This document shows, in pieces, positions 8,379 to 37,869 of a stretch of 64,000 bases of DNA. The notes under the pieces were generated by a model that did not search any database, had not been told where the DNA came from, and saw nothing but the letters and a program-made list of their open reading frames with translations. Position 1 is the first letter of the stretch; each line of letters opens with the position of its first letter. Position numbers and translations under genes: made by a program. The DNA is from a virus: positions 1,052-65,051 of the IMG/VR virus record IMGVR_UViG_3300037502_003029. One strand, given 5' to 3'.

Positions 8379-9515
8379 TTAATCTTCAAAATAATTTTTT
8401 CTTTTATTACTAGTAGAAGTATTTCTACTATTTAACAAATTAGTTAATTCGCTATTTACTTTAGTTTTTGCTTTATTAACAACAGATGTAAAATCAAATC
8501 CATTTGCTAATAATTGCATAAATGCTATTTGTTGTTCTAAATCTTTAGAAAATTCTTGATACCTTTTTTCTACCAAAGGTACTTTATAAGTAACTTTTCT
8601 ACCTTGGTTATCAACACCTTCAACTAATTCAGTTGGTTTAAATATCGCATCTTCCAAAGCTTTCTTTTCTAAAGCTAAACCTTTAGCAGTTCCTTTACTT
8701 ATAATTGCTTTTATTTGAGCATCTGTTTTTTGTTTCTCTTGTAACCATTGTTGTTTACGAGCTTCAGCTTCTCTTTGAGCACTTTGTAATACAATCATTT
8801 CTTGTTGCTTATGAAGAGCTATAGATTCTTCAGCTTTTTCAGCTAACAAACCTTTCTCTTTATAATTCTCGATGATATCATCTATTACATCAGGTGCTGT
8901 ATTTTTTAATTTCAAACCTGATTTAACAATAAATTCTAGATCTTCTTGCTCTTCTTCACCAGTTAAAACTACATCTGCTATATTTTTTAAGTACGCAGCA
9001 GTTTGAATAGTATCTTCATCAGCTCCATTCATTACTGCGTTTATATAATCAGCAATTTCAGCATATTGATTTGTAAGAATTTCTTTTTGTTCTTCTACTT
9101 TTTTGGTAACACTTTTTTTGATACCTTCAATCAAATCTTCTGCTTTTAGATCTTTAGATACTTCTGGTAACTCTAAAAGTTCAGAATCTACGTCTTTAAG
9201 AGCTAATGCTAATAAAGCTGTATTAGAATAATCATCAAAAGATTCAACACTATCTTCCGTAACAACAGAAGTATTGTCTACAACATCTGATACATCTTTA
9301 TCATCATTATCAGCATCATCATCTTCAGCAGATTCAATTGGATCATCAAAATCTTCATCTATTTCTGGTTCCAGAACATTTGAAGGATCATCATCCGCTT
9401 CATCTTGATAATCATCTAATAAATCAGATTCTCCGCTATCAAATAAATCTTCAATAGCATTGTTTACAAACATTTGTTCGCTTGTTTCTGTGAATTCTCC
9501 TACTTTTTTTCTCAT
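8379..9515 (-). CDS. Putative scaffolding protein
   Basis: Highly acidic N-terminus (D/E runs) plus long predicted coiled coil, between the portal and capsid genes. Confidence 0.5.
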   Translation of the reverse strand: MRKKVGEFTETSEQMFVNNAIEDLFDSGESDLLDDYQDEADDDPSNVLEPEIDEDFDDPIESAEDDDADNDDKDVSDVVDNTSVVTEDSVESFDDYSNTALLALALKDVDSELLELPEVSKDLKAEDLIEGIKKSVTKKVEEQKEILTNQYAEIADYINAVMNGADEDTIQTAAYLKNIADVVLTGEEEQEDLEFIVKSGLKLKNTAPDVIDDIIENYKEKGLLAEKAEESIALHKQQEMIVLQSAQREAEARKQQWLQEKQKTDAQIKAIISKGTAKGLALEKKALEDAIFKPTELVEGVDNQGRKVTYKVPLVEKRYQEFSKDLEQQIAFMQLLANGFDFTSVVNKAKTKVNSELTNLLNSRNTSTSNKRKNYFED

Positions 9516-9662
9516 ATTTTTTACTTTCTGTGTGCAAAGATATATATGATATATATATGAAAATAATAATGATACCTATTTAAAAAAGAAATTTTTTCAA
9601 CTTTATGTATTTTTGTTACCTTCGATATTTTATATCTATATAGTTTACACGGTTAATTAATA

Positions 9663-12194
9663 TTATTTTGAATTATTTTTTGATTTTGCAGCTATTTTAG
9701 CTTTTTCTATATCTGTTTTTAATTTTTTATCAATAATCTCTCTTTCTAAATCTCTATCTCTCTCTGCATCTTTTTGTTTAAGTTCTTCAACTTGTAAAAG
9801 ATCGCTTCTACCATCTTTATCAATATCCATTTGATTAGCCATAAGCATAGCTTTGATTTTATCTCTAAATTCATTAGATTCTCTATCTAATGCTTTTTCT
9901 CTAGATAACATCTCTTGCTGTTGTTTCATCATCTCTTGCTTCATAGCCTCAAGCTGCTGTGCTTGCTGTGCTTGTTGCTCTTGCATTTGCTGTTGTCTTT
10001 GCATCATCTTTTCTTCTGCTCTCTCAGCTATATTAAGAGCATCCGCCATATTATTAGCCATTTTTAATCTAATATATTCAGGAAAAGATATCATACCATT
10101 TTGTATCATAGCTTGACTATCCATTTTAATCTCTCTAAGATTATTAAAGTCTTCAGATGAATTTCTCAAACTAATACCAATTTCTGCACTATCTATAACT
10201 TCTTTATCTAACTCTAAATCTGCTATAGACATATCATCTAATACATAAGATGCAATATAAGTATTATCTTTTAATGCAATCTTTTCATTCTCTATGTGAC
10301 GATTTAATACTCTTTCTACAATCTCATTATGTAGAGTAAATAAATCTTGTGTTTGATATGTAGATTGTTGTATATTTTGTTGACTATTTCTAACAGCTTC
10401 TGTTGGTACAATTTGACCTAATCTCTGAGGATTATAGTTCATTGCTAAAGCAGCTTGTGCTCTAATCCAATCTAATTGTTGTAAATGACCAGCAATCTCG
10501 TTAAGTTGAGTTAAATCATACTGTTTAAATATTTGAGCATCAGTACCATTTATAAGCTCATTAGAAGTATTTAAAGGTAATATTTTACCATATTTAGCCA
10601 TTCTTAACCATTGAGCATAAGTCCACCCTTCAGGTTTATAAGTATCCGCTACGGTCATTATTTTACCGATATCAGTATTTTCTTTTTCTTGGATTATAGC
10701 TAATTTGATATTAAACTTATCTTGCCAAGGTTTAGCTAAATCTAGAGGAGCTACATTTTCTGTATTATTGAATAATTTAGAAAATTTAGCACCCATAAAA
10801 GGCATCTTAATATTCCAAGGTTCTAACATGTTTTTATATTGATTAGGTACTGGACCTAAATCAAAATATAAATAAGAATCTGTAGAACCATATTCTACTC
10901 TACAACCCATATACGCATGAGGAAACCAATGAGTAGTACAATATAAATCTTTTTTAGGATTTTTCTCATAAGTACCATCCACCCATATTTCTTCATACTC
11001 ATTCTTTTCTACATTATATCTAGTTACTAATTTAAACTTTCTAAGAGATTTAAAAGCAACTGTAGTACGAGTAAATAAAGTATCATTAGGATCTATATTA
11101 CCAAATTTACGGTGTAATTCTAAAAGTACTGATTGTCCTTCTTTTGATTTAATATTTGGTAACTTATCAAAGAATCCAGTTTCTGCATCAAACTGTGCTA
11201 CTTTAGTAGCCATTGGTTCAGGAAACTCTCCTCTAGTTCTTGTAATATTGTTATTATTAGAGGGATCAAATTCTCTTAACTTAGCTATATCTTTTTCAGT
11301 AATCTCATGACCATGATCTCTAAATAGAGTAGATAAACTTATATCTTCTCTATATACTTGCCAATCCATATCTTCTTCAAATAAAGCATCAGCAGGTCCA
11401 CCAGATAAATATCCTATAGGATTAATAATTTTGGTAAATGCTTTTTTATGCTTTATACCTGATTGATATATTTGTCTACCACTAATAAGCATATGTTTAA
11501 AATTCTCATCAGTCCAAAACTTTAACTTATCTCTTCGTATAGTAAACTCAGTAATCTTTTGTAGTAATGTTTCTCTAGGAGATTTATAATCTGAAGCCAT
11601 ATACCTTTCTATATCTTTAGGTAACATGGCTTTAGATTGTTGGTCTACCTGAGATTCAAATTCCTGTTGCATTTCAGGATCTAATTCTGATGGATCTTGT
11701 ATACTATTAGCTTGCATCCATTGCTGCATTGCTGTTTGACGAGCAGGTTCTATATATTCTTGTTGTAACCAATCTTGATATAATTCTAACTTTTTCTTTT
11801 TACGATAATTAACATTATCTACAGATGAGTCTGTAACTATTGGTTTAAAAGGCATCAATTGTTGTTGACCTAATAAAGATTTACCAATAGGCGTTATAAT
11901 ATCAAAATGAGGTATATCTTCACTATTAAAGTAATAACCAGAATCTTCTATATCATCTGCTATAAATGGACTAGAAACATCAGTTTTATAAATTCCTCTA
12001 GCATTCCATAATCTATAATTTAGTAAATCTTTTTCTAAAAGATCTGGATCGACGTAATCAAATTGATCCGCATAGTAATCAATCCAATCTTTTAACCATT
12101 TCCAGTTGTTAGCTTTTTTTTGAGAATGAGTAGTTCTATGTTGGCTAACACTTTGATGACTAATTGGTACACCTAATGTATTTAATGGTTCCAT
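9663..12194 (-). CDS. Putative portal protein with Q-rich coiled-coil C-terminal extension
   Basis: 843 aa ORF immediately downstream of and abutting terL (positional); C-terminus QQQMQEQQAQQAQQLEAMKQEMMKQQQEM. Confidence 0.4.
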   Translation of the reverse strand: MEPLNTLGVPISHQSVSQHRTTHSQKKANNWKWLKDWIDYYADQFDYVDPDLLEKDLLNYRLWNARGIYKTDVSSPFIADDIEDSGYYFNSEDIPHFDIITPIGKSLLGQQQLMPFKPIVTDSSVDNVNYRKKKKLELYQDWLQQEYIEPARQTAMQQWMQANSIQDPSELDPEMQQEFESQVDQQSKAMLPKDIERYMASDYKSPRETLLQKITEFTIRRDKLKFWTDENFKHMLISGRQIYQSGIKHKKAFTKIINPIGYLSGGPADALFEEDMDWQVYREDISLSTLFRDHGHEITEKDIAKLREFDPSNNNNITRTRGEFPEPMATKVAQFDAETGFFDKLPNIKSKEGQSVLLELHRKFGNIDPNDTLFTRTTVAFKSLRKFKLVTRYNVEKNEYEEIWVDGTYEKNPKKDLYCTTHWFPHAYMGCRVEYGSTDSYLYFDLGPVPNQYKNMLEPWNIKMPFMGAKFSKLFNNTENVAPLDLAKPWQDKFNIKLAIIQEKENTDIGKIMTVADTYKPEGWTYAQWLRMAKYGKILPLNTSNELINGTDAQIFKQYDLTQLNEIAGHLQQLDWIRAQAALAMNYNPQRLGQIVPTEAVRNSQQNIQQSTYQTQDLFTLHNEIVERVLNRHIENEKIALKDNTYIASYVLDDMSIADLELDKEVIDSAEIGISLRNSSEDFNNLREIKMDSQAMIQNGMISFPEYIRLKMANNMADALNIAERAEEKMMQRQQQMQEQQAQQAQQLEAMKQEMMKQQQEMLSREKALDRESNEFRDKIKAMLMANQMDIDKDGRSDLLQVEELKQKDAERDRDLEREIIDKKLKTDIEKAKIAAKSKNNSK

Positions 12195-14530
12195 TAATAT
12201 TTGTAGTATTGTTTAGTTAATAAAGTATTTCTTTTCGTAGTAAGTTGATTATAAAAATCATTTATAGTTTCTTTAGCTAGTTCACTACTTTGTTTTATAG
12301 GTACTTCTTTAGTTTGTTTAATCCATAACATAATTAATTTTAATGATGTTATATGGTCAAGTTTTGTTTTGTTTTCTCTAGTGTAAGCTATTAGTTGTTG
12401 AAGAATCATAGGTGATTTTAGCTTATTAAGGTTTAATAATTTAACACCATTTTCTTCTTTCCATTCAGTTAATAACCATTGTCTTATTAATTGTTCTGAT
12501 TGCTCATGTAACGCTGGAGAAGTCATATCTATACCAACATCATATTTTTTACCAGGGTTTTTAATAGAATCAGATATTGCTTTATAAGGTTTAGCCTGTA
12601 ATAAATGAGCATAACCTTCTCTTTTACAATAACGCACAAAATCCGGTATGTTTGTTTCTACCATTATTTTGGCATTATACATGATAGCTAATTGTACACA
12701 CAACTCATGTACATCCTCTACTCTATCCATCCTTCCTATATATTCTGCTACAATATCATCACTTAATCCTGTAGCCCAATTATTCTCCGATACTCCTTTA
12801 TACACTATTATAGAAGCTAATGATGGACCATCACCATCGTCCCTAACAGGGTCATATCCTATTTTATATAAAGAACTATTTTGATCTGGATTTGGTATAT
12901 TTGGTTCTGGAGCTTCATAAAATACTACCGCACCTTTTAGATTATTTTTGTATTGGTCTCTATTTAAACTTATAATAGGAATCAATCTATTTTGTAAATC
13001 TACTTCAAATATAACATCTGATTTATCTTTATTCCATTTTAGTTCACCAGTATAAGATAGTGTTTTAAATACATCTCTTATTTCTACATAAGTTAACTGT
13101 TCTCTTAATTTAGATATAGGAAATATATTTAACTGACCAGATAAAAACATTTCTGATGGTACAATAGGTCTATCCATCATATAAGCATCTAAAGCATAAT
13201 TGTTATCAGCTTTAGCTTTATCTGCTCGTATTCTCATTTCTTCCTCAAAAGCTGCTTCTAAATCTTGATTACCGTTTTCATCTCTAAATGAGTTATCAAC
13301 ATAATAACCAGGAATAAATAATCCAATAGGTTTTTTTCTACCTTCCCATAAATCAGGAAATCCTAAAAATAAATATTGTTCTGGATTCTCAAATACTGTT
13401 TTAGTATCATGAATCTTTTCCATATTACCTGCTGTACCAATACACAAATGAGAACCAAATTTATTATTTCTTTTTAAACCTGGTTCGTTAGCACCTAATA
13501 TTTTTAATAAATTAGTTACCAAACCCACCTCTTCTATAATAGAAGCTAAAGGTCCTTGTCCTACTGATGCTTCAGGATTATCTTCATAAGTAACGTGTAC
13601 TAAACGAGTACCTTTACCTTTTTTGATATCTACTCCGTTTACTTTCTCTATGTATTCATTTCTATATGGAGATTTTTGATTAGATGTGGTTAAACTACCT
13701 GATACTTGTTGATAAAACCATCCAGGTATAAAATTATCATCTTCTCCCCATGCACCAAAATTATTTTTATGGTATTCCTCTAAAAATGAAAAGTGCTTTA
13801 ATGTATCTGCAGATTTACCTAATACAGAACCAATAACAATTGCTGGTCCTCTCTTTAAGTTAAAATATTCTTCATCAAACCTAATAGCACCATGAAACTT
13901 AAATATATGAGAAAGTATTGCTACTAACCACATGGATTTACCTTGTCGTCTACTTGTAAGAACCATTATATTTAATGATTCATTTTCATATACTGGTAAA
14001 CCTAATGGTTTATCATGAGTTTTATATAAATATTCTCTAGGATCTATATATTTTTTATAACTACCATCTTTTTTATAGATATGTTTAAAATTCTTTAATT
14101 GAATTTTATCTTTAGTAGTTAATAACTCACCTGTTTCTATCTTTCTTAAAATATTATTACAACTATATTCTTCATCACCATCAAATCCGCTAAAACCTCT
14201 ACATATAAGCCAGTTATAAAAAAATAACCACTCTACATCTCGTAGTAGTGGTAAATCAATTCTAATTGAATTGGATATAGGATCTTCTTGCTCTATTGGA
14301 CAAAATGTAGAATACCAATATAGTTGTGGAGTACCATATCTCCAACCACCTTCTTGTGTTACTTCATCTTTATCTAATCCCCAATATCCTTCTACACATC
14401 TCCTTTCTTGCTCATTCCAATAATCACTATAATCTTTACTCTCTGGATGATATTCTGGATGATCCTTTATTAAAAAAGGTTTTAGATTATGGATTTTAGG
14501 AAATAATCTTACTACTTTAGCTTCACTCAT
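12194..14530 (-). CDS. terL: Terminase large subunit
   Basis: Walker A-like LTSRRQGKSMW (compare T4 gp17 SRQLGKT); 778 aa; placed upstream of portal/scaffold/capsid. Confidence 0.65.
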   Translation of the reverse strand: MSEAKVVRLFPKIHNLKPFLIKDHPEYHPESKDYSDYWNEQERRCVEGYWGLDKDEVTQEGGWRYGTPQLYWYSTFCPIEQEDPISNSIRIDLPLLRDVEWLFFYNWLICRGFSGFDGDEEYSCNNILRKIETGELLTTKDKIQLKNFKHIYKKDGSYKKYIDPREYLYKTHDKPLGLPVYENESLNIMVLTSRRQGKSMWLVAILSHIFKFHGAIRFDEEYFNLKRGPAIVIGSVLGKSADTLKHFSFLEEYHKNNFGAWGEDDNFIPGWFYQQVSGSLTTSNQKSPYRNEYIEKVNGVDIKKGKGTRLVHVTYEDNPEASVGQGPLASIIEEVGLVTNLLKILGANEPGLKRNNKFGSHLCIGTAGNMEKIHDTKTVFENPEQYLFLGFPDLWEGRKKPIGLFIPGYYVDNSFRDENGNQDLEAAFEEEMRIRADKAKADNNYALDAYMMDRPIVPSEMFLSGQLNIFPISKLREQLTYVEIRDVFKTLSYTGELKWNKDKSDVIFEVDLQNRLIPIISLNRDQYKNNLKGAVVFYEAPEPNIPNPDQNSSLYKIGYDPVRDDGDGPSLASIIVYKGVSENNWATGLSDDIVAEYIGRMDRVEDVHELCVQLAIMYNAKIMVETNIPDFVRYCKREGYAHLLQAKPYKAISDSIKNPGKKYDVGIDMTSPALHEQSEQLIRQWLLTEWKEENGVKLLNLNKLKSPMILQQLIAYTRENKTKLDHITSLKLIMLWIKQTKEVPIKQSSELAKETINDFYNQLTTKRNTLLTKQYYKY

Positions 14531-18693: not shown

Positions 18694-18787
18694 TAAATTT
18701 TTTAAAAAAAATCAAGTATTATTAATATCTATATAAAATATATAGGACAAAGTGAATAATACCTATATTTTTTACATAATTATTTCG

Positions 18788-18795
18788 TATATTTG
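18788..18795 (+). promoter_or_regulatory. Bacteroidetes-type -7 promoter element TATATTTG (consensus TAnnTTTG)
   Basis: Motif 18 nt upstream of the 18813 ATG. Confidence 0.3.
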
Positions 18796-18812
18796 TAATT
18801 AAAATAATTAAT

Positions 18813-22705: not shown

Positions 22706-23107
22706 TCAAGGAGAAGTATTTCTAAATATAACTAACATTGAAGGAAAAGGTGCTGAGTTTTTAGAATCTCCAAACTTTAATCTACCTTTAATAAATCTTA
22801 TCTCTGCTTTATTATAAACGTAATCATGAAACCATCGAGTGTCTGTTCTAGCAGGTACTAAATATACTAAAGTTTTAGCATTACCTTTTTTTAATTCTTC
22901 TAATCCTTTTTCTAAAAAAGCTTTTATATTAGAATAAGGGGGATTAATAAAAACGTTACCTATCCAATCTTTTTGTAAACCATTTTCACTACTTTTTAGA
23001 GGACATGGATCAAAATCAAAATTAAACTCTTTATCTAGCTTGTTATAAAACTCTTTTGGTGTAGACCAATCATCTGTTTTCTTACTAAACATTACTTCTG
23101 TATTCAT
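22706..23107 (-). CDS. dam: Phage-type DNA N6-adenine methyltransferase (Dam family)
   Basis: N-terminal DDWSTP and catalytic NPPY motif (VFINPPYS). Confidence 0.65.
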   Translation of the reverse strand: MNTEVMFSKKTDDWSTPKEFYNKLDKEFNFDFDPCPLKSSENGLQKDWIGNVFINPPYSNIKAFLEKGLEELKKGNAKTLVYLVPARTDTRWFHDYVYNKAEIRFIKGRLKFGDSKNSAPFPSMLVIFRNTSP

Positions 23108-23811
23108 ATTATATTTTAAATCTTTTCACAAAGATACAAAAAATAATTAACATAATATAGGGTATTAAAAAAAAAATCCCCATCTTAATTAAAAGATAGG
23201 GATTAATTATTTTGAGATTAAATATACTTATAGCAAAAAATAATAAGAAATATTATTTTCTTTTTTAAAGAACGGTGTACCCAGTGAAATTTTCCACTGC
23301 GGTACAAAATATAATCATAACCATATGCATTGTATATAATCTTGTTTTAGTAGGTCTCCTTAAATCATACCGCTAAAGCGGGTTAGATGTGGGGATAATG
23401 AACAATACATTTATTACTCAATGAGCGTATCCCTAAAACTTGTATTATATAATTAACAGCATCTTATAAAATCCTGTTACACCAGAGTTTCCTCTCAAAA
23501 ACAGGGTATAAGAGTTTATGCTCAAATACATAGCACAAAGATAATAAATAAAAAATTAATAAAAGGGGGTATTATGAAAATAATTAAAAAACTATATAAA
23601 AAGTATAGCATAAGCTCTATTAGGAAAGAAGTATATAGCGTGATTAGAGGTATATTTAATAATAAGTTGTGTTACTATGTGCATAGATTCAATATTGAGT
23701 TGTGCTACTATGCGTGTAGATATGTACCCCACCACCCCCCCACCAAAAATTCTACAAAAGAACATCCCCCCCTTCGCGTTTGTGGTTAAGCTTTTCTGTG
23801 TCCTAGCAGTG

Positions 23812-23826
23812 TTTTTTTTATTAACA
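23812..23826 (+). promoter_or_regulatory. T8-ATTAACA box, copy 1 of 4
   Basis: Repeated motif seen four times in 23.8-24.6 kb. Confidence 0.35.
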
Positions 23827-24005
23827 ACCACTTAGCCTATCTTTGCGTGTGTTTGTTACTCATGGGTAGCTATTGCTTAGCATCATGTGCTTGGGTAGAT
23901 ATGATTATCTACTATCAAGCTAGTGCTTAGCATTGCTGGTCCTGGGTAGCTACTGCTAACAAATGCTCTTCGAGCGCTTGCTCGTGGGATGCATATAATA
24001 AGCAG

Positions 24006-24020
24006 TTTTTTTTATTAACA
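24006..24020 (+). promoter_or_regulatory. T8-ATTAACA box, copy 2 of 4
   Basis: Same motif; 55 nt upstream of the 24075 ORF. Confidence 0.35.
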
Positions 24021-24074
24021 CACGCAGAGTTAATATTTGGTTGAGTAGTTTGCTTAACCATCAAATCTTACGTT

Positions 24075-24338
24075 ATGAACATTGCAGAAATCAAATCGAC
24101 CATCGGTATTACGCAGCTTCCGCTCAATAACCTAACAAACAAGGATGGTAGTCCATCCGAGTTTATGGGTGCATGGATGGATAACCCTCGTAGAAGGGTC
24201 TTGATCCATAAGGACGTAGCTGCAAAAGCGGCTACATCCGAAGCGCTGTTTGTTAAAGTAAACGAGATGGAAGGCCCAAAGGGGTCTTACACCCGTTACA
24301 TCATCTGTGAGGGAAAAGAACCAGATATGGTGCTTTAA
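24075..24338 (+). CDS. Hypothetical protein (higher-GC small gene)
   Basis: ORF track; followed by a strong terminator. Confidence 0.45.
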   Translation: MNIAEIKSTIGITQLPLNNLTNKDGSPSEFMGAWMDNPRRRVLIHKDVAAKAATSEALFVKVNEMEGPKGSYTRYIICEGKEPDMVL

Positions 24339-24343
24339 CCCTC

Positions 24344-24406
24344 AAACCCAGTCACGCTAAGGGAGCGTGGTAAGTAGTGCACCTCATGCGCTCACTGGGT
24401 TTTTTA
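24344..24406 (+). terminator. Rho-independent terminator (stem AACCCAGT/ACTGGGTT with nested CACGCT/AGCGTG hairpin, then T6)
   Basis: Seen in sequence. Confidence 0.55.
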
Positions 24407-24419
24407 CTTTTGTGCTTTT

Positions 24420-24436
24420 GTTTTTTTTTATTAACA
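24420..24436 (+). promoter_or_regulatory. T10-ATTAACA box, copy 3 of 4
   Basis: Repeated motif. Confidence 0.35.
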
Positions 24437-24605
24437 AACACTCTGTTTATCTATGCGGAAATATAATATATATTGTATATTTATTTTTGCAACTATATAT
24501 ATAATGCGTACGAATTGTATATATAGAATAGAGTAAAGGGTTATAATAATATCTACAACATGGTTGAGAGTTATAAGCCTCGTAAATCCCTTGTAGATAT
24601 TATTA

Positions 24606-24622
24606 TTTTTTTTTTATTAACA
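24606..24622 (+). promoter_or_regulatory. T10-ATTAACA box, copy 4 of 4 (preceded by 11-bp hairpin AATATCTACAA...TTGTAGATATT)
   Basis: Repeated motif. Confidence 0.35.
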
Positions 24623-25064
24623 CTCACTCTGACTATCTTAGGCGCATTGATTAAACATGGTGCGCTTATTCTTAGCATTTTCATGCTATGTTTTGGGTGT
24701 TATGGATAGATGCCCGATGTAATTTTGTAGATTACGCTGCATATGTGGTGTAATATTTGTTTGGTTTTATGATGTACGAAGGATTTCGTAGATGTTGTAA
24801 TAACCATCAATAGCAAAATTAGCACATCCATAACACCCATTCCTTACCCATAATAACGGGTAATTATATGTATTTTTGTTACGAATAACTACTAAAAGAC
24901 GCATTAAAACAAATCCTATTACATAGTGATTACATGTAATAGCACGTTTAATAATGAATGAAGTTTATAAATAATAAAAACATAGTAGTAGTCTAATCAA
25001 CAATATCTACAGTATGTTCTTCATTCTTTTTTATTTGCATTTTATAACCATCAAATCATAAACC

Positions 25065-30054: not shown

Positions 30055-30355
30055 ATCAAAACGAAGTAACAGAAAGAATTGGTGTATATAGCACATCTGT
30101 TATTTTTTTACATGGGGGATAATAGGCAATCGACTAATAATAAAAAATATACAATCAGCAGTGAGAATGGTAGTAGTCTCACTATAATAACTTATACCAA
30201 ACATTAAATGGCAATTTATTTAACAAATTGACTGAAGGTGCTAAAGTAGTATCTTTGGTTTCAAGTTTTAAACCACAAGTAGCAGTTGCTGCTTGATCTT
30301 GAGCAAACAAAGGTTTTTTATAATTTCTCTATTTTAGTATTAATATAAATAGAGT

Positions 30356-30505: not shown

Positions 30506-30578
30506 TGACTCATAGTGTAATGGTTTAGCACCACAGTTTTTGAAGCTGTTAGTTTAGGTTCAAATCCTAATGAGTCAT
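30506..30578 (+). tRNA. tRNA-Gln (anticodon TTG)
   Basis: Acceptor TGACTCA/TGAGTCA, D-stem GTGT/GCAC, anticodon stem ACAGT/GCTGT with loop TTTTGAA, T-arm TTAGG-TTCAAAT-CCTAA. Confidence 0.8.
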
Positions 30579-30599
30579 CACTTTATTAAATTTTAAATC

Positions 30600-32688: not shown

Positions 32689-32711
32689 AGGTTAAGTAAA
32701 ATTAAGAATTA

Positions 32712-32780
32712 GGAAATCTTACAGCAAATTAATAACAATTTTGTTCGACCATATTTAAATTAAATTTTATATAGATTTCC
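32712..32780 (+). ncRNA. Structured RNA unit A (terminal helix GGAAATCT/AGATTTCC; ACAGCAAATTAATA box)
   Basis: Perfect 8-bp inverted repeat closing a 69-nt unit; conserved box directly 3' of the 5' strand. Confidence 0.5.
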
Positions 32781-32785
32781 GATAA

Positions 32786-32850
32786 GAACAGTTACAGCAA
32801 ATTAATACAAGCACCAAACTTTTAATTTGACACGCTAATTAATACTGTTC
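32786..32850 (+). ncRNA. Structured RNA unit B (GAACAGT/ACTGTTC; ACAGCAAATTAATA box)
   Basis: As unit A; GATAAG linker on both sides. Confidence 0.5.
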
Positions 32851-32855
32851 TGATA

Positions 32856-32964
32856 AGTACACACACAGCAAATATTAAAAAAAACGGATCAACAACATTA
32901 ATTTCTATTTAATACTTGTAAATCCTAGTTGGTTCAAATCCAGCAGGTTGAAATAAAGTGTACT
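32856..32964 (+). ncRNA. Structured RNA unit C (AGTACAC/GTGTACT) containing anticodon-like hairpin ATTTA-ATACTTG-TAAAT and T-arm GTTGG-TTCAAAT-CCAGC
   Basis: Seen in sequence. Confidence 0.5.
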
Positions 32965-32968
32965 GATA

Positions 32969-33104
32969 AAGATAGTAACAGCAACTTTTATGTTAAAGAA
33001 GATCTGTGGGTCACAAGTTCAAATCTTGTATTCTTATGTAAATAAGAATTAGCTCAGTTGGTAGAGCAATGGAATAAAACAAAATACTATCTTGTTTTTT
33101 TTTT
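32969..33104 (+). ncRNA. Structured RNA unit D (AAGATAGTA/TACTATCTT, then T10) with circularly permuted tRNA module: T-arm + acceptor 3' strand ATTCTTA, 6-nt spacer, acceptor 5' strand TAAGAAT + canonical D-arm AGCTCAGTTGGTAGAGC
   Basis: Seen in sequence; both acceptor strands are perfectly complementary but in reversed gene order. Confidence 0.5.
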
Positions 33105-33122
33105 AATTTTAAAACTTAAAAA

Positions 33123-33620: not shown

Positions 33621-33628
33621 TATTATAT

Positions 33629-33744
33629 GGGGGCAGATGGAAATTTTAATCAGTATTGATTAATAACAGCAAATTATAATTAAATAAATAGCACAAATTG
33701 TCACTTTGTAGTTCATTACATCCTGAAAGTAATTGCCCCCGCCA
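33629..33744 (+). ncRNA. Structured RNA unit U1 (GGGGGCA ... TGCCCCC-G-CCA: acceptor-like stem with encoded CCA; internal hairpin TTAATCA/TGATTAA; ACAGCAAATTATAA box)
   Basis: Seen in sequence. Confidence 0.45.
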
Positions 33745-33746
33745 CA

Positions 33747-33820
33747 AGATATCATACAGCAAATTAAAAATATTTAAACACAAAAATAGGGATTTTGCAA
33801 GTTTTTATAAAATGATATCT
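33747..33820 (+). ncRNA. Structured RNA unit U2 (AGATATCAT/ATGATATCT; ACAGCAAATTAAAAA box)
   Basis: Perfect 9-bp terminal helix. Confidence 0.5.
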
Positions 33821-33828
33821 GTTTAATA

Positions 33829-33926
33829 AATTCTCATACAGCAAGTATATATATAAAAAAATCTTTTTCTAAACAAAAGCGAAGCCTGGATGGTGGGTAT
33901 TAAGGGTTCGATTCCCTACGAGAATT
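33829..33926 (+). ncRNA. Structured RNA unit U3 (AATTCTCAT/ACGAGAATT, 8 of 9 bp) containing T-arm-like AGGG-TTCGATT-CCCT
   Basis: Seen in sequence. Confidence 0.45.
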
Positions 33927-33931
33927 GATAA

Positions 33932-33992
33932 GAGTACATACAGCAAATTTAAAAACACCCTGATTTATAATTTGGTTATGTAAAATGTACTC
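33932..33992 (+). ncRNA. Structured RNA unit U4 (GAGTACAT/ATGTACTC; ACAGCAAATTTAAAAA box)
   Basis: Perfect 8-bp terminal helix. Confidence 0.5.
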
Positions 33993-33997
33993 TGATA

Positions 33998-34070
33998 AGA
34001 AGCGAAACAGCAAATTAATTATAGGACTAGACTTTTAATCTAACATTCTAAATAATCGCTTCTGTTTTTT
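33998..34070 (+). ncRNA. Structured RNA unit U5 (AGAAGCGA/TCGCTTCT, then T6) with anticodon-like loop CTTTTAA on stem TAGA/TCTA
   Basis: Seen in sequence. Confidence 0.5.
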
Positions 34071-34166
34071 AACTTTAAAAATAAAATAACATGTTTGATA
34101 TTATTATTGCTGGTTTAATTGTATATGCGTTTATAGGTATAATAATATATTTAGATAAATATACAG

Positions 34167-34588: not shown

Positions 34589-34915
34589 ATGAAGCATAAA
34601 GTATTAAAAAAACATTTAAAAGAAGGAAATATATTACCAATATATATAAATTGGCAAGAACAACAAGGTTTTAGAGGTAATGCAGTATTATTAAAACGAT
34701 TGGTAAGTAGAGAACCACCAGAAGAAGATAAAATTTATTTATTTAAAGAAATAGGTGATATAATAAAAGATCGCTTAAAAGATAAAATAAATATACTTTA
34801 TTCTTATCAGTGGTGGAGAATTGAATTTATTGATGGTCCAAATTCAGGATTTGTAACTGCTGTAAAAATAGCATATTACAAAAGAACTTTTTGGCAAACA
34901 GAAGAAGAAGAATAA
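34589..34915 (+). CDS. Hypothetical protein
   Basis: ORF track. Confidence 0.4.
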   Translation: MKHKVLKKHLKEGNILPIYINWQEQQGFRGNAVLLKRLVSREPPEEDKIYLFKEIGDIIKDRLKDKINILYSYQWWRIEFIDGPNSGFVTAVKIAYYKRTFWQTEEEE

Positions 34916-34917
34916 CT

Positions 34918-36063
34918 ATGACAATAAGATTTTTTGATTTAGAAATATATCCAAACTTATTTGTAGCTGTATTTTATAATCCTTATGATAAAGAATATAC
35001 AACTTTTACATTATGGGAGCATAATGGATTAGCACAAATAAATGAATTACCGCAATTAAAAAAATATCTTAAAGATAATTCAGATATTTATTTTTGTGGA
35101 TATAATTCTTTAGGATATGATATGCAAATTCTTACAGAAATTATAAAAAAGAATTTGTGTACTACAGACCAGATTAAGCAATTTAATGATTACTTAATAT
35201 CACAGGAATGGCCTATATATAGAGAAAAAGATTTATGTGGTAAAACACTAGATTTAATGCTTATCAATAATTATGGACCAAAAAGCGCTAAAAGTACATC
35301 ATTAAAAAAACTTGAGTTTAATCTTAGAAAAAAGAAAATACAAGATTTACCATATCATTTTAATGATTTAATAACAAAAGAATCTGAAGTAAATGATATT
35401 ATAAAATATTGTAAGTATGACGTAGAAGTTACTGTAGATGTATTTAGATTGAGTAAAGAACTTATTAATTTAAGATTAGAATTTGAACCTATAATTGGAG
35501 AATCTGTATTAAATTCACCTGAACCTGATTTAGCTAAAAAGTTTGTTTATAAAGAATTAGCTAATTATATGGATATTGATGTTAATACTTTTAAGAAACT
35601 AAGAACTTATCATGAAGAAATAAAAGTTAAAGATTTAATATTACCTTTTATTAACTTTACAAAAGAACATTATAAAGAAGTATTAGATTATTATAACGGA
35701 CTAGTTTTAAATGCTACTAATAAATCAGTATTAGGAAATCAAAAAGTAATAAACTTAAAAAATGCAGTAAACAAAACTATTAATTATGATGGTTTAGAAA
35801 CTGTATACGGTAGTGGAGGTATTCACGCTTCAGTAGAAGCTGGTGTATATTCAGAGTCTGAAGAATATATGATTACTACTGCTGATTTTACATCTTATTA
35901 TCCTCATTTACAGTTTATACATGATTGTATAGCAGGACATATACCATCTGAATTATATTCTAAATTAGTTAAATATCTTTTTGCAGAAAGAAAAAAACAT
36001 GCTAAAGGAACAAGCTTAAACTATGTATATAAAATTATGATTAATTTACTTTACGGTGGTTAA
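34918..36063 (+). CDS. Family-B DNA polymerase, exon 1 (3'-5' exonuclease domain through polymerase motif B); alternative start at 34891
   Basis: Exo I FDLEIYPN, Exo II GYNSLGYDMQIL (YGYNxxxFDxxxL), Exo III YCKYDVEV. The ORF ends exactly at motif B, KIMINLLYGG (Kx3NSxYG). Confidence 0.55.
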   Translation: MTIRFFDLEIYPNLFVAVFYNPYDKEYTTFTLWEHNGLAQINELPQLKKYLKDNSDIYFCGYNSLGYDMQILTEIIKKNLCTTDQIKQFNDYLISQEWPIYREKDLCGKTLDLMLINNYGPKSAKSTSLKKLEFNLRKKKIQDLPYHFNDLITKESEVNDIIKYCKYDVEVTVDVFRLSKELINLRLEFEPIIGESVLNSPEPDLAKKFVYKELANYMDIDVNTFKKLRTYHEEIKVKDLILPFINFTKEHYKEVLDYYNGLVLNATNKSVLGNQKVINLKNAVNKTINYDGLETVYGSGGIHASVEAGVYSESEEYMITTADFTSYYPHLQFIHDCIAGHIPSELYSKLVKYLFAERKKHAKGTSLNYVYKIMINLLYGG

Positions 36064-37035
36064 TATTATGTTAATTTCTTATTATTATTATTATATTTAT
36101 AATTATTTTTTATGCATATTTGTATAAAAATATATAAACGAGAAAATAATATAATAGATAGATACAGCCGCTTATTAGAGCAATCTAATATGAAAAACTC
36201 CTTAAATTCGGTGGACGCTCCAGAACAGAGTAATACCGAGCCAAGCATTAATTTAAATGATTAATGAAGGTGTAACGACTAGAGAAATAATTAAAACAAT
36301 TTAAAATCACAAATTAGTGTATTATGCAAAATAGAGAAAAATCATTGTTAATTGCTATGTGCATCGGAGACGGTCACATAGTAAAAGATCCTAATTCCAA
36401 ATCATGTTCGCTTATAATAAGACATTCTACAAAACAAATAGAATGGATAGAAAAAAAACATGAATTGATAGTTTCTATATTAGGAGGGTATGTTCCTAAA
36501 TTAACTAAATTTAATAATTCAGGTTATCCTGGAATTAGATTTAGTAAAAGTTCAAAATACTTTAGGGTATTAAGAAAATGGATATATCCAAATAATAAAA
36601 AAAATATATCAAGATATATATTAAATAAACTTGATGAAGAAGGTATTGCTATATGGTATATGGATGACGGTGGATTGAGTGCTAAAAGAAGAAATGGGAA
36701 AATACATGCTTATAATCTGTTTTTGAATACTCATCTTACTATTGAAGAAAATCAAATAATAATCAATTATTTTAAAGAAGTTTGGGATATTAATTTTCAG
36801 CAAGTAAAAAATAAAGGTCATTATAGATTAAGAATGGGTACTAAAGAAATTAGAAAATTTATACCATTAATTTCAAAATACATCATTCCTTCTATGCAAT
36901 ATAAGATAACAATGAATTTTAATTGAAATTATTTTTCCACGAAAAAGGAGCATCCTACAGGGATGAAGATATAGTCTGGACTGCATATATAGTTCATAAA
37001 TAAAAATGCAGAACTACAAGATAAAGAGCTTGTAG
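36064..37035 (+). other. Intervening sequence in the DNA polymerase gene (candidate group I intron carrying a homing-endonuclease ORF); the 3' boundary lies somewhere in 37036..37113
   Basis: The polymerase frame stops immediately after motif B. A LAGLIDADG ORF sits in another frame, and the polymerase reading frame reopens at 37036. Confidence 0.45.
36324..36926 (+). CDS. LAGLIDADG-family homing endonuclease
   Basis: Two LAGLIDADG-like motifs, LIAMCIGDGHI and IAIWYMDDGGL. Confidence 0.55.
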   Translation: MQNREKSLLIAMCIGDGHIVKDPNSKSCSLIIRHSTKQIEWIEKKHELIVSILGGYVPKLTKFNNSGYPGIRFSKSSKYFRVLRKWIYPNNKKNISRYILNKLDEEGIAIWYMDDGGLSAKRRNGKIHAYNLFLNTHLTIEENQIIINYFKEVWDINFQQVKNKGHYRLRMGTKEIRKFIPLISKYIIPSMQYKITMNFN

Positions 37036-37113
37036 GATAACAAATCGTTAAGTAATTCTGAATACTCTGCATTATTTGATACTAAAGCTACTCTTAAAAC
37101 TACTATAAACGGT

Positions 37114-37869
37114 ATGCTTAGTATTAGTATGATAGCTGATAAAATATATGATATTCCTAAAGCTAGAATATTAATGAAAAATACAGATGGTTTAGAAGTA
37201 TATCATTTAAGAACTGATAAAGATCTTGTTGAAAAAATACTAAATGAAATATCTGAATTGATTAATATACCTATTGAAATAGGTTATTATAGTAAAATGA
37301 TTATATTAAATGTTAACAACTATATAGCTGTAGATGTTAATAAAAAAGTAAAAACAAAAGGTCTTTTTGAAGATTATAATGATATAATAATCGCTGGTAT
37401 GTATCATAAAGATACTTCAGCTATGATAATTCCTAAAGCATTAAAAGCTTTTTTTGTTAATGATATTCCAGTAGAACAAACTATTAATGAAGAAAATTCT
37501 ATTTATGAGTTTTGTTATGGTAATAAAGGTAGTAGTTCATATAAATGGATGTTAACAGAATACGATCCTGAATTAAAAGTAGCAACTTCAGAATTATTTG
37601 ATTCTAGGTTTATACGATATTATGCAGGAGGATATCAAACTATATCACAACTTTGGACAAATGGTAAAAAAGCAGGTCAAATACAAGCAGTACAAGCTAA
37701 AACGCCTGTTACTTTAGCTATGAATATTCCAAAAGAAGATATTTTTGATTATAAAAAAGGAGAGCGTATATATAAAGAAAAAGAACGCTATCCTAATTTA
37801 AATAGGGAATGGTATATTTCAGAATGTTATAAAATTATTAACCAAATTTTAAATAATGAAAAAGTTTAG
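37114..37869 (+). CDS. Family-B DNA polymerase, exon 2 (C-terminal palm/thumb; the frame is open upstream to 37036)
   Basis: Follows the interrupted polymerase gene; KNTDGLEVY is a possible variant of motif C (YGDTDS). Confidence 0.4.
   Translation: MLSISMIADKIYDIPKARILMKNTDGLEVYHLRTDKDLVEKILNEISELINIPIEIGYYSKMIILNVNNYIAVDVNKKVKTKGLFEDYNDIIIAGMYHKDTSAMIIPKALKAFFVNDIPVEQTINEENSIYEFCYGNKGSSSYKWMLTEYDPELKVATSELFDSRFIRYYAGGYQTISQLWTNGKKAGQIQAVQAKTPVTLAMNIPKEDIFDYKKGERIYKEKERYPNLNREWYISECYKIINQILNNEKV

What the first reader, a model, noticed from the sequence alone, without database searches (positions are those of the whole stretch)
23574..24660. Divergent-module junction packed with direct repeats, C-tracts, terminators and a fourfold T8-10-ATTAACA box
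Several repeat features cluster between the minus structural block and the plus replication block. There are imperfect 24-nt direct repeats (AGTTGTGyTACTATGyG..TAGAT, twice). There are poly-C tracts (CCCCACCACCCCCCCACC, CCCCCCC) in a ~28 % GC genome. There are three TGGGTAG(C/A)TA repeats and GCTTAGCAT twice. The box TTTTTTTT(TT)ATTAACA occurs four times, each directly after a hairpin. This is an origin- or early-promoter-like regulatory hub. The box may be a phage-specific promoter or termination-reinitiation signal.
Basis: seen in the sequence. Interest (0 to 1): 0.55.

Follow-up and report, generated by a model that had tools for sequence, protein, structure and literature searches.

The report
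Promoter boxes heading early phage cassettes
At the point where a marine crAss-like phage genome switches from leftward structural genes to rightward replication genes, a 42-base promoter-like box repeated four times heads a row of small self-contained units (three folded non-coding RNAs and one tiny protein gene), and relatives gain, lose or swap units exactly at these boxes.

Summary
The sequence features are real. TTTTTTTTATTAACA occurs exactly four times in 64 kb, all on the + strand within 810 bases (0.37 expected). The true repeat is 42 nt: T-run, ATTAACA, 2 nt, CACTCTG, 2 nt, then TATCTTTG/AATATTTG/TATCTATG/TATCTTAG. The last element matches the Bacteroidetes sigma-A -7 box (TAnnTTTG).

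Each box heads a short unit:
- two paralogous structured RNAs (A, D)
- an 87-aa gene with its own terminator
- an AT-rich hairpin RNA (C)

A fifth unit runs leftward. The "TGGGTAG/GCTTAGCAT repeats" are the arms of unit A's long hairpin.

Close relatives from other metagenomes keep the boxes and RNAs at 92–100% identity (80–97% in the third lineage), although the 87-aa gene has saturated synonymous sites (dS 1.2–2.2). These relatives lack unit C exactly from box to box. A more distant relative keeps T-run, CACTCTG and TATATTTG but replaces ATTAACA and carries an unrelated gene in the protein slot.

Best reading: composite terminator/promoter boxes, probably read by host RNA polymerase, that drive early RNAs and act as recombination joints. 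This resembles the PeSL cassettes of T4-type phages.

Unresolved: which polymerase reads the boxes, what the RNAs do, and what the iterons and C-tracts do. The virion RNA polymerase is the interesting alternative reader.

The parts
23165..23204 (-). Intrinsic terminator of the leftward RNA: 12-bp stem at 23175-23204, then a T10 tail at 23165-23174. The Dam promoter follows it (-7 box TATCTTTG, 23129-23136, minus strand).
23205..23531 (-). Leftward structured non-coding RNA (L-RNA), about 330-370 nt including the terminator.
   Evidence: The fold has z -4.85. Identity to lineage B is 97.9%, while Dam dS is 0.16. No Rfam family matches.
23536..23564 (-). Leftward promoter P_L: TTTTATTAAT (23555-23564), 11 nt, then TATCTTTG (23536-23543). 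It is a degenerate, inverted relative of the box.
   Evidence: with coordinates read
23665..23723 (.). Iterons AGTTGTGyTACTATGyGyrTAGAT. The window has two copies 33 nt apart and lineage B has three.
23727..23772 (+). C-tracts CCCCACCACCCCCCCACC and CCCCCCC. Similar tracts sit at the same place in distant relative L290 and at the phi14:2 junction. Four independent contigs end here.
23811..23852 (+). Box 1: T8, ATTAACA, AC, CACTTAG, CC, TATCTTTG. Predicted start is about 23850.
23850..24013 (+). Unit A: a structured RNA made of a long hairpin (arms are the TGGGTAGCTA and GCTTAGCAT motifs) plus a terminator hairpin and U8.
   Evidence: The fold has z -4.87. Positions 23853-24004 are 100% identical to lineage B and 97.4% to lineage C. 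The lineage C changes fall in the 5' end and in a hairpin loop.
24005..24046 (+). Box 2: T8, ATTAACA, CA, CGCAGAG, TT, AATATTTG. Predicted start is about 24044.
24075..24338 (+). Unit B: an 87-aa protein gene of unknown function, preceded by TAACCATCAAA (24055-24065).
   Evidence: dN/dS is 0.06-0.13 with dS 1.2-2.2. Homologues are P0002 and P0003. There is no Pfam, PHROG or PDB-fold match.
24344..24408 (+). Terminator of the 87-aa gene: a branched hairpin followed by U6.
   Evidence: z -2.0. Identity across the three lineages is 96-98%.
24421..24462 (+). Box 3: T9, ATTAACA, AA, CACTCTG, TT, TATCTATG. Predicted start is about 24460.
24460..24617 (+). Unit C: an AT-rich RNA with two hairpins. 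The second is a perfect 16-bp stem (24543-24558 with 24591-24606) followed by U10. The whole 186-bp cassette 24421-24606 is absent from lineages B and C.
   Evidence: z -4.15; I7
24606..24648 (+). Box 4: T10, ATTAACA, CT, CACTCTG, AC, TATCTTAG. Predicted start is about 24646.
24642..24883 (+). Unit D: a structured RNA of about 240 nt. Its 5' 70 nt are paralogous to unit A. Alignment between lineages breaks down after 24883.
   Evidence: The fold has z -4.33. The consensus structure has 80 pairs, 6 of them with compensatory double changes. The paralogy is family D2.

Best explanation
The window comes from an uncultured phage distantly related to Cellulophaga phage phi14:2 (Crassvirales). The 'box' is the upstream half of a 42-nt composite regulatory element. 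Its parts are a T-run, a lineage-specific heptamer (ATTAACA), a conserved CACTCTG, and a Bacteroidetes-type -7 promoter element (TATCTTTG-like).

Four copies head four short rightward transcription units at the start of the replication-side module:
- structured RNA A
- an 87-aa protein gene
- hairpin RNA C
- structured RNA D

Each unit ends in a hairpin plus U-tract. In two cases that U-tract is the T-run of the next box, so termination of one unit and initiation of the next share the same 50 bases.

I infer that the host sigma-A RNA polymerase initiates about 5 nt after the -7 element and makes abundant early or constitutive RNAs, like the persistent non-coding RNAs reported near the left end of phi14:2.

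Because the boxes are near-identical direct repeats, they also act as homologous-recombination joints where cassettes are lost, gained or replaced.

Shown: the repeat, its conservation, the unit structure, the RNA folds with covariation, and the box-to-box indel. Inferred: promoter activity, which polymerase is used, the transcription start sites and the function of the RNAs.
For: Phage identity:
- TerL, portal and major capsid protein match crAss-type PHROG families. The best cultured relative is phi14:2, at 34.5% TerL identity.

The repeat:
- The box occurs 4 times against 0.37 expected, and the repeat family is 42 nt long.
- In the register-aligned boxes the last octamer matches TAnnTTTG at 6/6, 5/6, 5/6 and 5/6 positions. 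Only 1.4% of octamers in the window reach 5/6.
- The sigma-A -7 box TAnnTTTG lies at -12 to -5 in Flavobacterium (PMC9723704).

Same -7 word elsewhere:
- TATCTTTG sits upstream of Dam, upstream of gene 8379-9515, in the 18694-18812 gap, and in a canonical TTG-N19-TATCTTTG site upstream of tRNA-Gln.
- phi14:2 middle promoters read as TTG, about 20 nt, then TAnnTTTG. The paper says these are host-RNAP promoters.
- The first phi14:2 long non-coding RNA has TACCTTTG just upstream. The paper reports these RNAs as early and persistent.

The T-run belongs to the box:
- Boxes 1 and 3 have the T-run without an adjoining hairpin, so it is not merely a terminator tail.

The units are real:
- Fold z-scores are -4.2 to -4.9.
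- Unit D has 6 compensatory pairs.
- Non-coding parts are 92-100% identical between the window and lineage B (80-97% against lineage C), while ORF87 dS is 1.2-2.2, ORF160 dS is 0.76 and Dam dS is 0.16.

A distant relative keeps the architecture:
- L290 (62% identity in the 160-aa protein) has three boxes of T-run, GTACTCCwT, CACTCTG, NN, TATATTTG-like, in the same layout.

Cassette exchange:
- Unit C (24421-24606) is absent from box to box in lineages B and C.
- Identity drops to about 75% between box 2 and the terminator.
- The gene in the protein slot of L290 is unrelated to ORF87.
- Lineage B carries an extra 110-aa ORF flanked by TAACCATCAAA-type repeats.
Against: - There is no transcript data, so no start site is mapped.
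- The canonical -33 TTG is missing. At the expected position the window boxes have only T's, and in L290 the TTG sits about 2-3 nt too close.
- A conserved CACTCTG in the spacer and a lineage-specific heptamer are not known features of sigma-A promoters. They would fit a phage-encoded specificity factor or polymerase.
- The 5' hairpin of unit D (24642-24665) shows three one-sided compatible changes. It begins 4 nt upstream of the start site predicted from the -7 register.
- The boxes lie at the head of the module that, in phi14:2, is transcribed by the virion RNA polymerase.
- The four window boxes are paralogues, so their agreement is not four independent observations.
- Only three close lineages and one distant lineage were available.
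Confidence: 0.5

Rival explanations
1. The boxes are early promoters for the phage's injected virion RNA polymerase (the two-barrel, gp66-type enzyme of crAss-like phages). The lineage-specific heptamer would be the specificity element and CACTCTG..TATCTTTG the conserved melting and initiation region.
For: - The boxes cluster at the very start of the rightward module, which is the early, virion-RNAP-transcribed class in phi14:2.
- A cluster of 3-4 strong promoters at the leading end is the classic layout for phages that bring or redirect a polymerase (N4 and T7; my own knowledge).
- The split between a lineage-specific upstream half and a conserved downstream half is the pattern seen in phage-polymerase promoter families.
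- There is no -33 TTG.
- Nearly all other plus-strand intergenic regions lack a TAnnTTTG site.
Against: - In phi14:2 the mapped early 5' ends had no common upstream motif.
- The downstream element is the same word (TATCTTTG) used upstream of minus-strand genes whose phi14:2 counterparts are host-RNAP dependent.
- The virion RNAP gene lies outside the window and was not seen.
- The box is absent from all other plus-strand intergenic regions of about 40 kb of putative early genes.
Confidence: 0.2
2. The junction is mainly a DNA-level hub, either a replication origin or a packaging/terminus region. The iterons, the C-tracts, the ultra-conserved hairpin-forming unit A and the boxes would be protein-binding or cruciform DNA elements rather than transcription signals.
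For: - The iterons have about 33-nt phasing and vary in copy number, 2 against 3.
- The only C6+ runs in the window are here, and similar tracts recur in L290 and at the phi14:2 junction.
- Cumulative GC and AT skews reach their minima at 27.5 kb and 24.8 kb.
- Four contigs from different assemblies end at the C-tracts.
- Unit A is 100% identical between the window and lineage B.
Against: - The skew minimum coincides with the switch of coding strand, so it carries little information.
- Contig ends at poly-C next to a variable repeat are what short-read assemblers tend to produce for technical reasons (inference).
- Unit D shows RNA-type compensatory changes.
- Every box is strand-specific and is followed by a unit that ends in a hairpin plus U-tract.
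- No initiator or small-terminase gene was identified next to the junction.
- This reading may still hold for the iterons and C-tracts without explaining the boxes.
Confidence: 0.1
3. The boxes are scars of tandem duplication or recombination with little present function. Alternatively they are RNA-level processing sites within one long early transcript.
For: - Units A and D are paralogues that share about 70 nt after the box (family D2), so at least one duplication happened.
- The cassette indel lies exactly at the boxes.
Against: - Within the boxes, conservation is concentrated in discrete blocks (T-run, heptamer, CACTCTG, -7) separated by freely varying positions. This indicates selection on those blocks.
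- The blocks persist in L290, where the flanking units are no longer alignable.
- Terminator hairpins precede boxes 2 and 4 directly, and box 3 at about 20 nt. That argues against obligatory read-through.
Confidence: 0.1
4. The boxes are promoters for a T7/T3-type single-subunit RNA polymerase. Box 4 reads ATTAACaCTCACT, against ATTAACCCTCACT in the T3 promoter.
For: Twelve of 13 bases match the T3 promoter core in box 4.
Against: - The two bases that complete the match in box 4 vary in the other boxes.
- The heptamer is replaced in L290.
- No ORF of suitable size and no RNAP family hit exists in the 64 kb.
- Crassvirales are not known to encode such an enzyme.
Confidence: 0.02

Closest known systems
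PeSLs (promoter-early stem-loop cassettes) of T4-type phages (Arbiol et al. 2010, PMC2839356; Comeau et al. 2014, PMC4122927)
   Same: - Both are short repeated composite motifs that combine an AT-rich stretch, a host-type early promoter and a terminator stem-loop.
- Both sit between small non-essential units in a plastic region.
- In both, insertions, deletions and replacements between close relatives are bounded by the motifs (for the definition; here).
   Different: - The phage order (Crassvirales) and the host phylum differ.
- The promoter half is a Bacteroidetes -7 type, not a sigma-70 -35/-10 type. It carries an extra conserved CACTCTG and a lineage-specific heptamer, and it lacks the -33 element.
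- Only about 4 copies were found, all at one junction within the 64 kb examined (the complete genome was not available), rather than dozens across several regions.
- Most cassettes here are structured RNAs, not ORFans.
- Neither promoter and terminator activity nor mini-circle formation has been tested.
Bacteroidetes sigma-A promoters (-33 TTTG / -7 TAnnTTTG), including the phi14:2 middle/late promoters
   Same: The -7 element is present at a fixed register. The same word, TATCTTTG, is used at other putative promoters of this phage and upstream of phi14:2 g110.
   Different: - There is no TTG at -33. A T-run occupies that position.
- The conserved ATTAACA and CACTCTG lie in what should be a non-specific spacer.
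Early persistent long non-coding RNAs of Cellulophaga phage phi14:2 (bioRxiv 10.1101/2020.03.07.982082)
   Same: - Both are long non-coding stretches near the start of the rightward module of a crAss-like phage.
- In phi14:2 they are transcribed rightward, are more abundant than most mRNAs, appear from the earliest time point and do not decline.
- A -7-type box lies just upstream of the first one.
   Different: - There is no detectable sequence similarity.
- One of the two phi14:2 regions is a tmRNA by ARAGORN. No tmRNA or Rfam family is found here.
- No repeated box is seen in phi14:2.
Leading-end early promoter clusters (T7 A1-A3; N4 P1-P3)
   Same: Three to four closely spaced, same-strand promoters sit at the entry side of the early region (my own knowledge).
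   Different: - T7 A1-A3 are sigma-70 promoters, and N4 promoters are DNA hairpins read by a T7-like virion RNAP.
- The physical genome end of this phage is not known.

Membership tests
Bacteroidetes sigma-A promoter | -7 element TAnnTTTG | tested here: met
   The octamers TATCTTTG, AATATTTG, TATCTATG and TATCTTAG lie in register, matching at 6/6, 5/6, 5/6 and 5/6 positions. Background frequency of a 5/6-or-better match is 1.4%. L290 has TATATCTG, TATATTTG and TATATAGG.
Bacteroidetes sigma-A promoter | -33 element TTG/TTTG about 19-20 nt upstream of the -7 element | tested here: not met
   The window boxes have TTTT at that position, with no G. In L290 a TTG lies 17 nt upstream. The reference spacing is 19-20 nt, taken from phi14:2 promoters and from the 30228-30257 site.
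Bacteroidetes sigma-A promoter | A primary transcript 5' end about 5 nt downstream of the -7 element | not testable with these tools
   No transcript data are available. The register is taken from PMC9723704.
PeSL-type composite terminator/promoter cassette | A repeated intergenic motif that contains a host-type early promoter | tested here: inconclusive
   The repeat and the -7 element are present. Promoter activity is untested and the -33 element is absent.
PeSL-type composite terminator/promoter cassette | A stem-loop terminator that is part of, or adjoins, the motif | tested here: inconclusive
   A hairpin adjoins boxes 2 and 4 directly. It lies about 20 nt upstream of box 3. Box 1 has none.
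PeSL-type composite terminator/promoter cassette | Indels and replacements between close relatives are bounded by the motifs | tested here: met
   The 186-bp unit C is absent from box to box in lineages B and C. Divergence jumps at box 2 and at the terminator. An unrelated gene fills the protein slot in L290.
PeSL-type composite terminator/promoter cassette | Sigma-70 -35/-10 consensus and occurrence in T4-type phages (the family as originally defined) | tested here: not met
   No sigma-70-type pair has the right spacing. TTAACA is followed at 17 nt by TGCGTG or TGGTTG (read; scan). The phage is crAss-like.
Intrinsic (hairpin + U-tract) terminator | A stable stem-loop immediately followed by a U-run | tested here: met
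   Unit A ends in a hairpin plus U8, ORF87 in a hairpin plus U6, unit C in a 16-bp stem plus U10, and L-RNA in a 12-bp stem plus U10.
Iteron-type replication origin | Several phased direct repeats next to an AT-rich region, with a cognate initiator gene nearby | tested here: inconclusive
   There are 2-3 iterons about 33 nt apart, with the 23546-23664 spacer beside them (AT-rich by my reading). No initiator was identified. The skew minimum is confounded by the strand switch.
Known RNA families (Rfam 15), tRNA, tmRNA | A covariance-model match at the gathering score | tested here: not met
   Nothing in 23150-24900 scores above 21.5 bits, against gathering scores of 39 or more. ARAGORN finds nothing there.
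T7/T3-group single-subunit RNAP promoter | A cognate single-subunit RNAP gene in the phage, and a conserved -17..+6 promoter | tested here: not met
   No candidate gene exists in the 64 kb. The resemblance is limited to box 4 and is not conserved in L290.
crAss-like virion RNAP early promoter | None is defined. No consensus is known for phi14:2. | not testable with these tools
   This needs in vitro transcription with the enzyme or rifampicin-resistant 5'-end mapping.

The most novel reading that the evidence does not exclude
The 42-nt boxes are the promoters recognised by the crAss-like virion RNA polymerase, whose promoter has not been defined. The lineage-specific heptamer (ATTAACA versus GTACTCC) would co-evolve with the enzyme. 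The ultra-conserved RNAs A, D and L would be the first products made in the infected cell, for example host-takeover or anti-defence RNAs.
Probability: 0.2. Interest if true: 0.8.

Novelty: new variant of a known kind. Interest (0 to 1): 0.5.

Why it matters
- Transcription signals of Crassvirales are poorly known. For the one studied member, host-type middle/late promoters were defined but no early-promoter motif was found.
- This lineage offers a compact 1.7-kb stretch with five short units, a sharply defined repeated promoter-like element and at least three non-coding RNAs. Those RNAs are held nearly invariant while neighbouring synonymous sites are saturated.
- That makes two questions directly testable on one PCR fragment: which polymerase reads the first transcription units of a crAss-like phage, and what the abundant early phage RNAs do.
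- It also suggests that PeSL-style cassette shuffling at composite terminator/promoter repeats, described for T4-type phages, operates in an unrelated phage order.

Tried and rejected
Searches that led nowhere:
A longer box pattern returned nothing.
- Megablast of the region against GenBank phages found no match.
- Anchoring relatives on Dam gave 67% identity at best and loci that were not syntenic. Anchoring on the 202-aa gene gave 43% at best. The 87-aa protein had no relatives in IMG/VR.
- The metagenome scan with a unit A 19-mer gave only a chance hit in an unrelated 48% GC contig.
- Rfam, at gathering and at lax thresholds, matched only tRNAs.
- blastn of the units against phi14:2 and L290 found nothing.
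- The 87-aa protein has no Pfam or PHROG family. Its AlphaFold model has pLDDT 82, but no PDB fold match reaches E<=0.001.
- Supplementary promoter tables of the phi14:2 paper are not held.

Ideas considered and dropped:
- Coding through the boxes: ORFs cross boxes 1, 3 and 4, but in different frames, and they are not conserved.
- A small peptide in units A or D: in relatives the start codon is lost, and the changes are RNA-compensatory.
- A sigma-70 -35/-10 reading of TTAACA: no -10 element at 16-18 nt.
- An IHF-site reading: only box 1 approaches the consensus (my own check).
- Pairing of the unit A 5' end with box 2 (inverted repeat I20): the lineage C substitutions break it without compensation.
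- An integron attC-like reading: no matching core site and no integrase.
- Antisense targets of the RNAs within the window: only one 16-nt match, of doubtful significance.
Full report
**What the window is.** The minus-strand block encodes a terminase large subunit (12194-14530), a portal (9663-12194) and a major capsid protein (6827-8365). All three match crAss-type PHROG families. By TerL, the closest cultured phage is Cellulophaga phage phi14:2 (Crassvirales) at only 34.5% identity. The plus-strand block holds replication and nucleotide-metabolism genes: PolB-like, a LAGLIDADG endonuclease, helicases, DnaB, ThyX-like and an RtcB-like ligase. Window GC is 27.2%. The finding sits where the two blocks diverge. 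The last leftward gene is a Dam methylase (22706-23107) and the first rightward gene is at 24075-24338.

**Checking the observation.**
- TTTTTTTTATTAACA occurs four times, at 23812, 24006, 24422 and 24608, all on the + strand. Expectation is 0.37, and no shuffle out of 100 reaches 4.
- Relaxing the pattern adds no convincing copies elsewhere.
- The two 17-nt direct repeats, the C-tracts (the only C6+ runs in 64 kb) and the TGGGTAG/GCTTAGCAT motifs are all present at the stated places.
- 'Each box directly after a hairpin' holds only for boxes 2 and 4. Box 3 follows the terminator of the 87-aa gene at about 20 nt, and box 1 has no hairpin.
- So the T-run is part of the box itself and not only a terminator tail.

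**Anatomy of the box.** The repeat is 42 nt long (family D1). In register, the four window copies, the six copies from two close lineages and the three copies from a distant relative read as follows:

| Block | Sequence |
|---|---|
| 1 | T-run |
| 2 | 9 lineage-specific nt: ATTAACAnn here, GTACTCCwT in the distant relative |
| 3 | CACTCTG (box 1 CACTTAG, box 2 CGCAGAG) |
| 4 | 2 free nt |
| 5 | TATCTTTG / AATATTTG / TATCTATG / TATCTTAG here; TATATCTG / TATATTTG / TATATAGG in the distant relative |

- The last block matches the Bacteroidetes sigma-A -7 element TAnnTTTG at 5-6 of 6 specified positions in all window boxes. Only 1.4% of window octamers do as well.
- In Flavobacterium this element lies at -12 to -5 (PMC9723704). 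That predicts starts near 23850, 24044, 24460 and 24646.
- TATCTTTG is also found upstream of Dam, upstream of gene 8379-9515, in the 18694-18812 gap, and in a canonical TTG-N19-TATCTTTG site before tRNA-Gln.
- In phi14:2 I read the published host-RNAP middle promoters as TTG, about 20 nt, then TAnnTTTG. One of them is TATCTTTG.
- The boxes lack the -33 TTG. T's occupy that position. The conserved ATTAACA and CACTCTG lie in what should be a neutral spacer.

**What the boxes head.**
- Box 1 leads to unit A (about 23850-24013).
- Box 2 leads to an 87-aa gene with a branched terminator and U6.
- Box 3 leads to unit C, an AT-rich RNA ending in a perfect 16-bp stem and U10 (z -4.15).
- Box 4 leads to unit D, about 240 nt (z -4.3). 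Its first 70 nt are paralogous to unit A (family D2).
- On the other strand, TTTTATTAAT-N11-TATCTTTG (23536-23564) is a degenerate inverted cousin of the box. It heads a structured RNA of about 330-370 nt that ends at a 12-bp stem plus T10. The Dam promoter follows directly.
- None of these RNAs matches Rfam, tRNA or tmRNA models.

**Relatives.** IMG/VR and GenBank phages hold no close relative. Protein look-ups gave contigs from other assemblies:
- Lineage B (L284, L285, L286, L293) has the 87-aa protein at 83% identity.
- Lineage C (L287, L288) has it at 82%.
- The more distant L290 has the 160-aa neighbour at 62%.

The alignment and per-segment identities are shown below.

| Segment | Window vs lineage B | Window vs lineage C |
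|---|---|---|
| Unit A core | 100% | 97.4% |
| Boxes | 90-100% | 86-95% |
| Unit D | 92% | 80% |
| 87-aa gene (DNA) | about 75% | about 75% |

- For the 87-aa gene, dS is 1.2-2.2 and dN/dS is 0.06-0.13. It is a real gene, and neutral sites are saturated.
- Even against the least diverged neighbour (Dam, dS 0.16), zero changes in 152 nt of unit A is far below the neutral expectation.
- Unit D has 6 base pairs with compensatory double changes and many one-sided compatible ones. Examples are UAGCAU/AUGCUA becoming GACCAU/AUGGUU, and the long-range stem 24694-24707 with 24826-24839.
- These units are therefore functional RNAs or equally constrained DNA. They are not spacers.

**Cassette dynamics.**
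- Lineages B and C have three boxes, not four. The 186 bp from the start of box 3 to the start of box 4 (unit C) are missing exactly from box to box. The single remaining box is a box 3/box 4 chimera.
- L290 keeps three boxes in the layout of the window's boxes 2-4 (box, gene, box, unit, box, D-like unit) and has no recognisable box before its A-like unit. Its protein slot holds an unrelated 92-aa gene.
- Lineage B also carries an extra 110-aa ORF flanked by TAACCATCAAA-type repeats. That motif sits 10 nt before the start codons of the 87-aa and 160-aa genes here.
- The iterons number two here and three in lineage B. The ORF that would span them is truncated there, so they are non-coding.
- Loss, gain and replacement of units at conserved composite terminator/promoter repeats is the behaviour described for PeSL cassettes of T4-type phages (PMC2839356, PMC4122927).

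**Most likely mechanism.**
- The boxes are promoters fused to the preceding unit's terminator, and they drive short independent units.
- I favour the host sigma-A polymerase for three reasons. The -7 element is present. The same word is used at minus-strand promoters of the host-RNAP type. The persistent early non-coding RNAs of phi14:2 include one with TACCTTTG just upstream.
- The main rival is the virion RNA polymerase. The boxes sit at the head of the module that this enzyme transcribes in phi14:2. They lack -33 TTG. Their upstream half is lineage-specific while their downstream half is conserved.
- Against the rival, no common motif was found at phi14:2 early starts, and the box is absent from the other plus-strand intergenic regions of the window.
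- One detail fits neither reading cleanly. The 5' hairpin of unit D starts 4 nt before the start site predicted from the -7 register.

**Iterons and C-tracts.**
- They lie between the divergent promoters P_L and box 1.
- C/G tracts recur at the same place in L290 and at the phi14:2 junction.
- Four contigs end there.
- The skews reach their minima nearby.
- An origin or terminus role is possible. However, the skew signal is confounded by the strand switch, and contig breaks at poly-C next to a variable repeat are expected for technical reasons. I leave this part open.

**Novelty.** Promoter/terminator cassettes and early promoter clusters are known kinds. Three things are new here:
- their occurrence in a crAss-like phage;
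- the unusual promoter architecture, with a -7 element but no -33, plus CACTCTG and a lineage-specific heptamer;
- a set of unannotated, extremely conserved RNAs.

This is a new variant of a known kind, of moderate interest. Interest would be higher if the boxes prove to be the undefined virion-RNAP promoter.

Noticed in passing
window 32689-33122 and 33621-34166 (+): A second, unrelated repeat family has about nine same-strand copies of (C)TGATAAG-N7-ACAGCAAATTAA. ACAGCAA starts at 32721, 32794, 32865, 32978, 33666, 33756, 33838, 33940 and 34007. All lie in two long non-coding gaps of the replication module. The gaps also hold tRNA-like fragments (T-arm and D-arm-like strings near 32930, 33052 and 33905) that neither ARAGORN nor Rfam calls. 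This could be another promoter or processing box class, or an array of degenerate or split tRNA-like RNAs.
   Followed up: partly
window 23165-23564 (-): A leftward structured RNA of about 330-370 nt has its own TATCTTTG promoter and terminator, and lies between the junction and the Dam gene. It is 98% identical in lineage B, and no Rfam family matches.
   Followed up: partly
L001 4031-4500 (phi14:2 record coordinates): ARAGORN calls a tmRNA (tag GSSVQKLAMVA*) in one of the two phi14:2 intergenic regions reported as abundant long non-coding RNAs of undetermined function.
   Followed up: yes
window 24867-24882 and 9604-9619 (+): The 16-mer TATGTATTTTTGTTAC ends unit D and is conserved in all lineages (ATGTATTATTGTTAC in L290). 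It recurs in the gap after the portal gene. It contains TAnnTTTG, so it may be a further promoter or an antisense target, or it may be chance.
   Followed up: no
window 23724-23745; starts of L284, L287, L288, L290: Four contigs from independent assemblies, including the distant relative, begin at or within the poly-C tracts. This could mark a physical genome end, or an assembly break at a homopolymer next to a variable repeat.
   Followed up: no
window 34891-37869 (+): A PolB-like ORF (34891-36063) is followed by a LAGLIDADG homing endonuclease (36324-36926) and a further ORF (37114-37869). This looks like a polymerase gene split by an intron or another mobile insertion. phi14:2 PolB is likewise annotated as joined from two pieces.
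   Followed up: no
window 24055-24065, 25045-25055; L285 about 2210 and 2555: TAACCATCAAA sits about 10 nt upstream of the start codons of the 87-aa and 160-aa genes. It also flanks the extra 110-aa ORF of lineage B. It may be a translation-initiation leader that doubles as a recombination joint (10 matches against 3.3 expected at one mismatch or fewer).
   Followed up: partly
window 30228-30257 (+): This is the only canonical TTG-N19-TATCTTTG promoter in a plus-strand intergenic region. It lies about 250 nt upstream of tRNA-Gln (30506-30579), leaving room for another small RNA. It lies just after the 554-aa 'RNA-binding protein' (phrog_850, DUF7788). An RtcB-like ligase lies at 60202-61509.
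   Followed up: no
L292 400-830: In the most distant relative found (58% identity in the 160-aa protein), the region upstream of the homologous genes is 40% GC and full of long G/C-rich inverted repeats. It shows no box motif, which suggests a different set of structured RNAs in the same slot.
   Followed up: no
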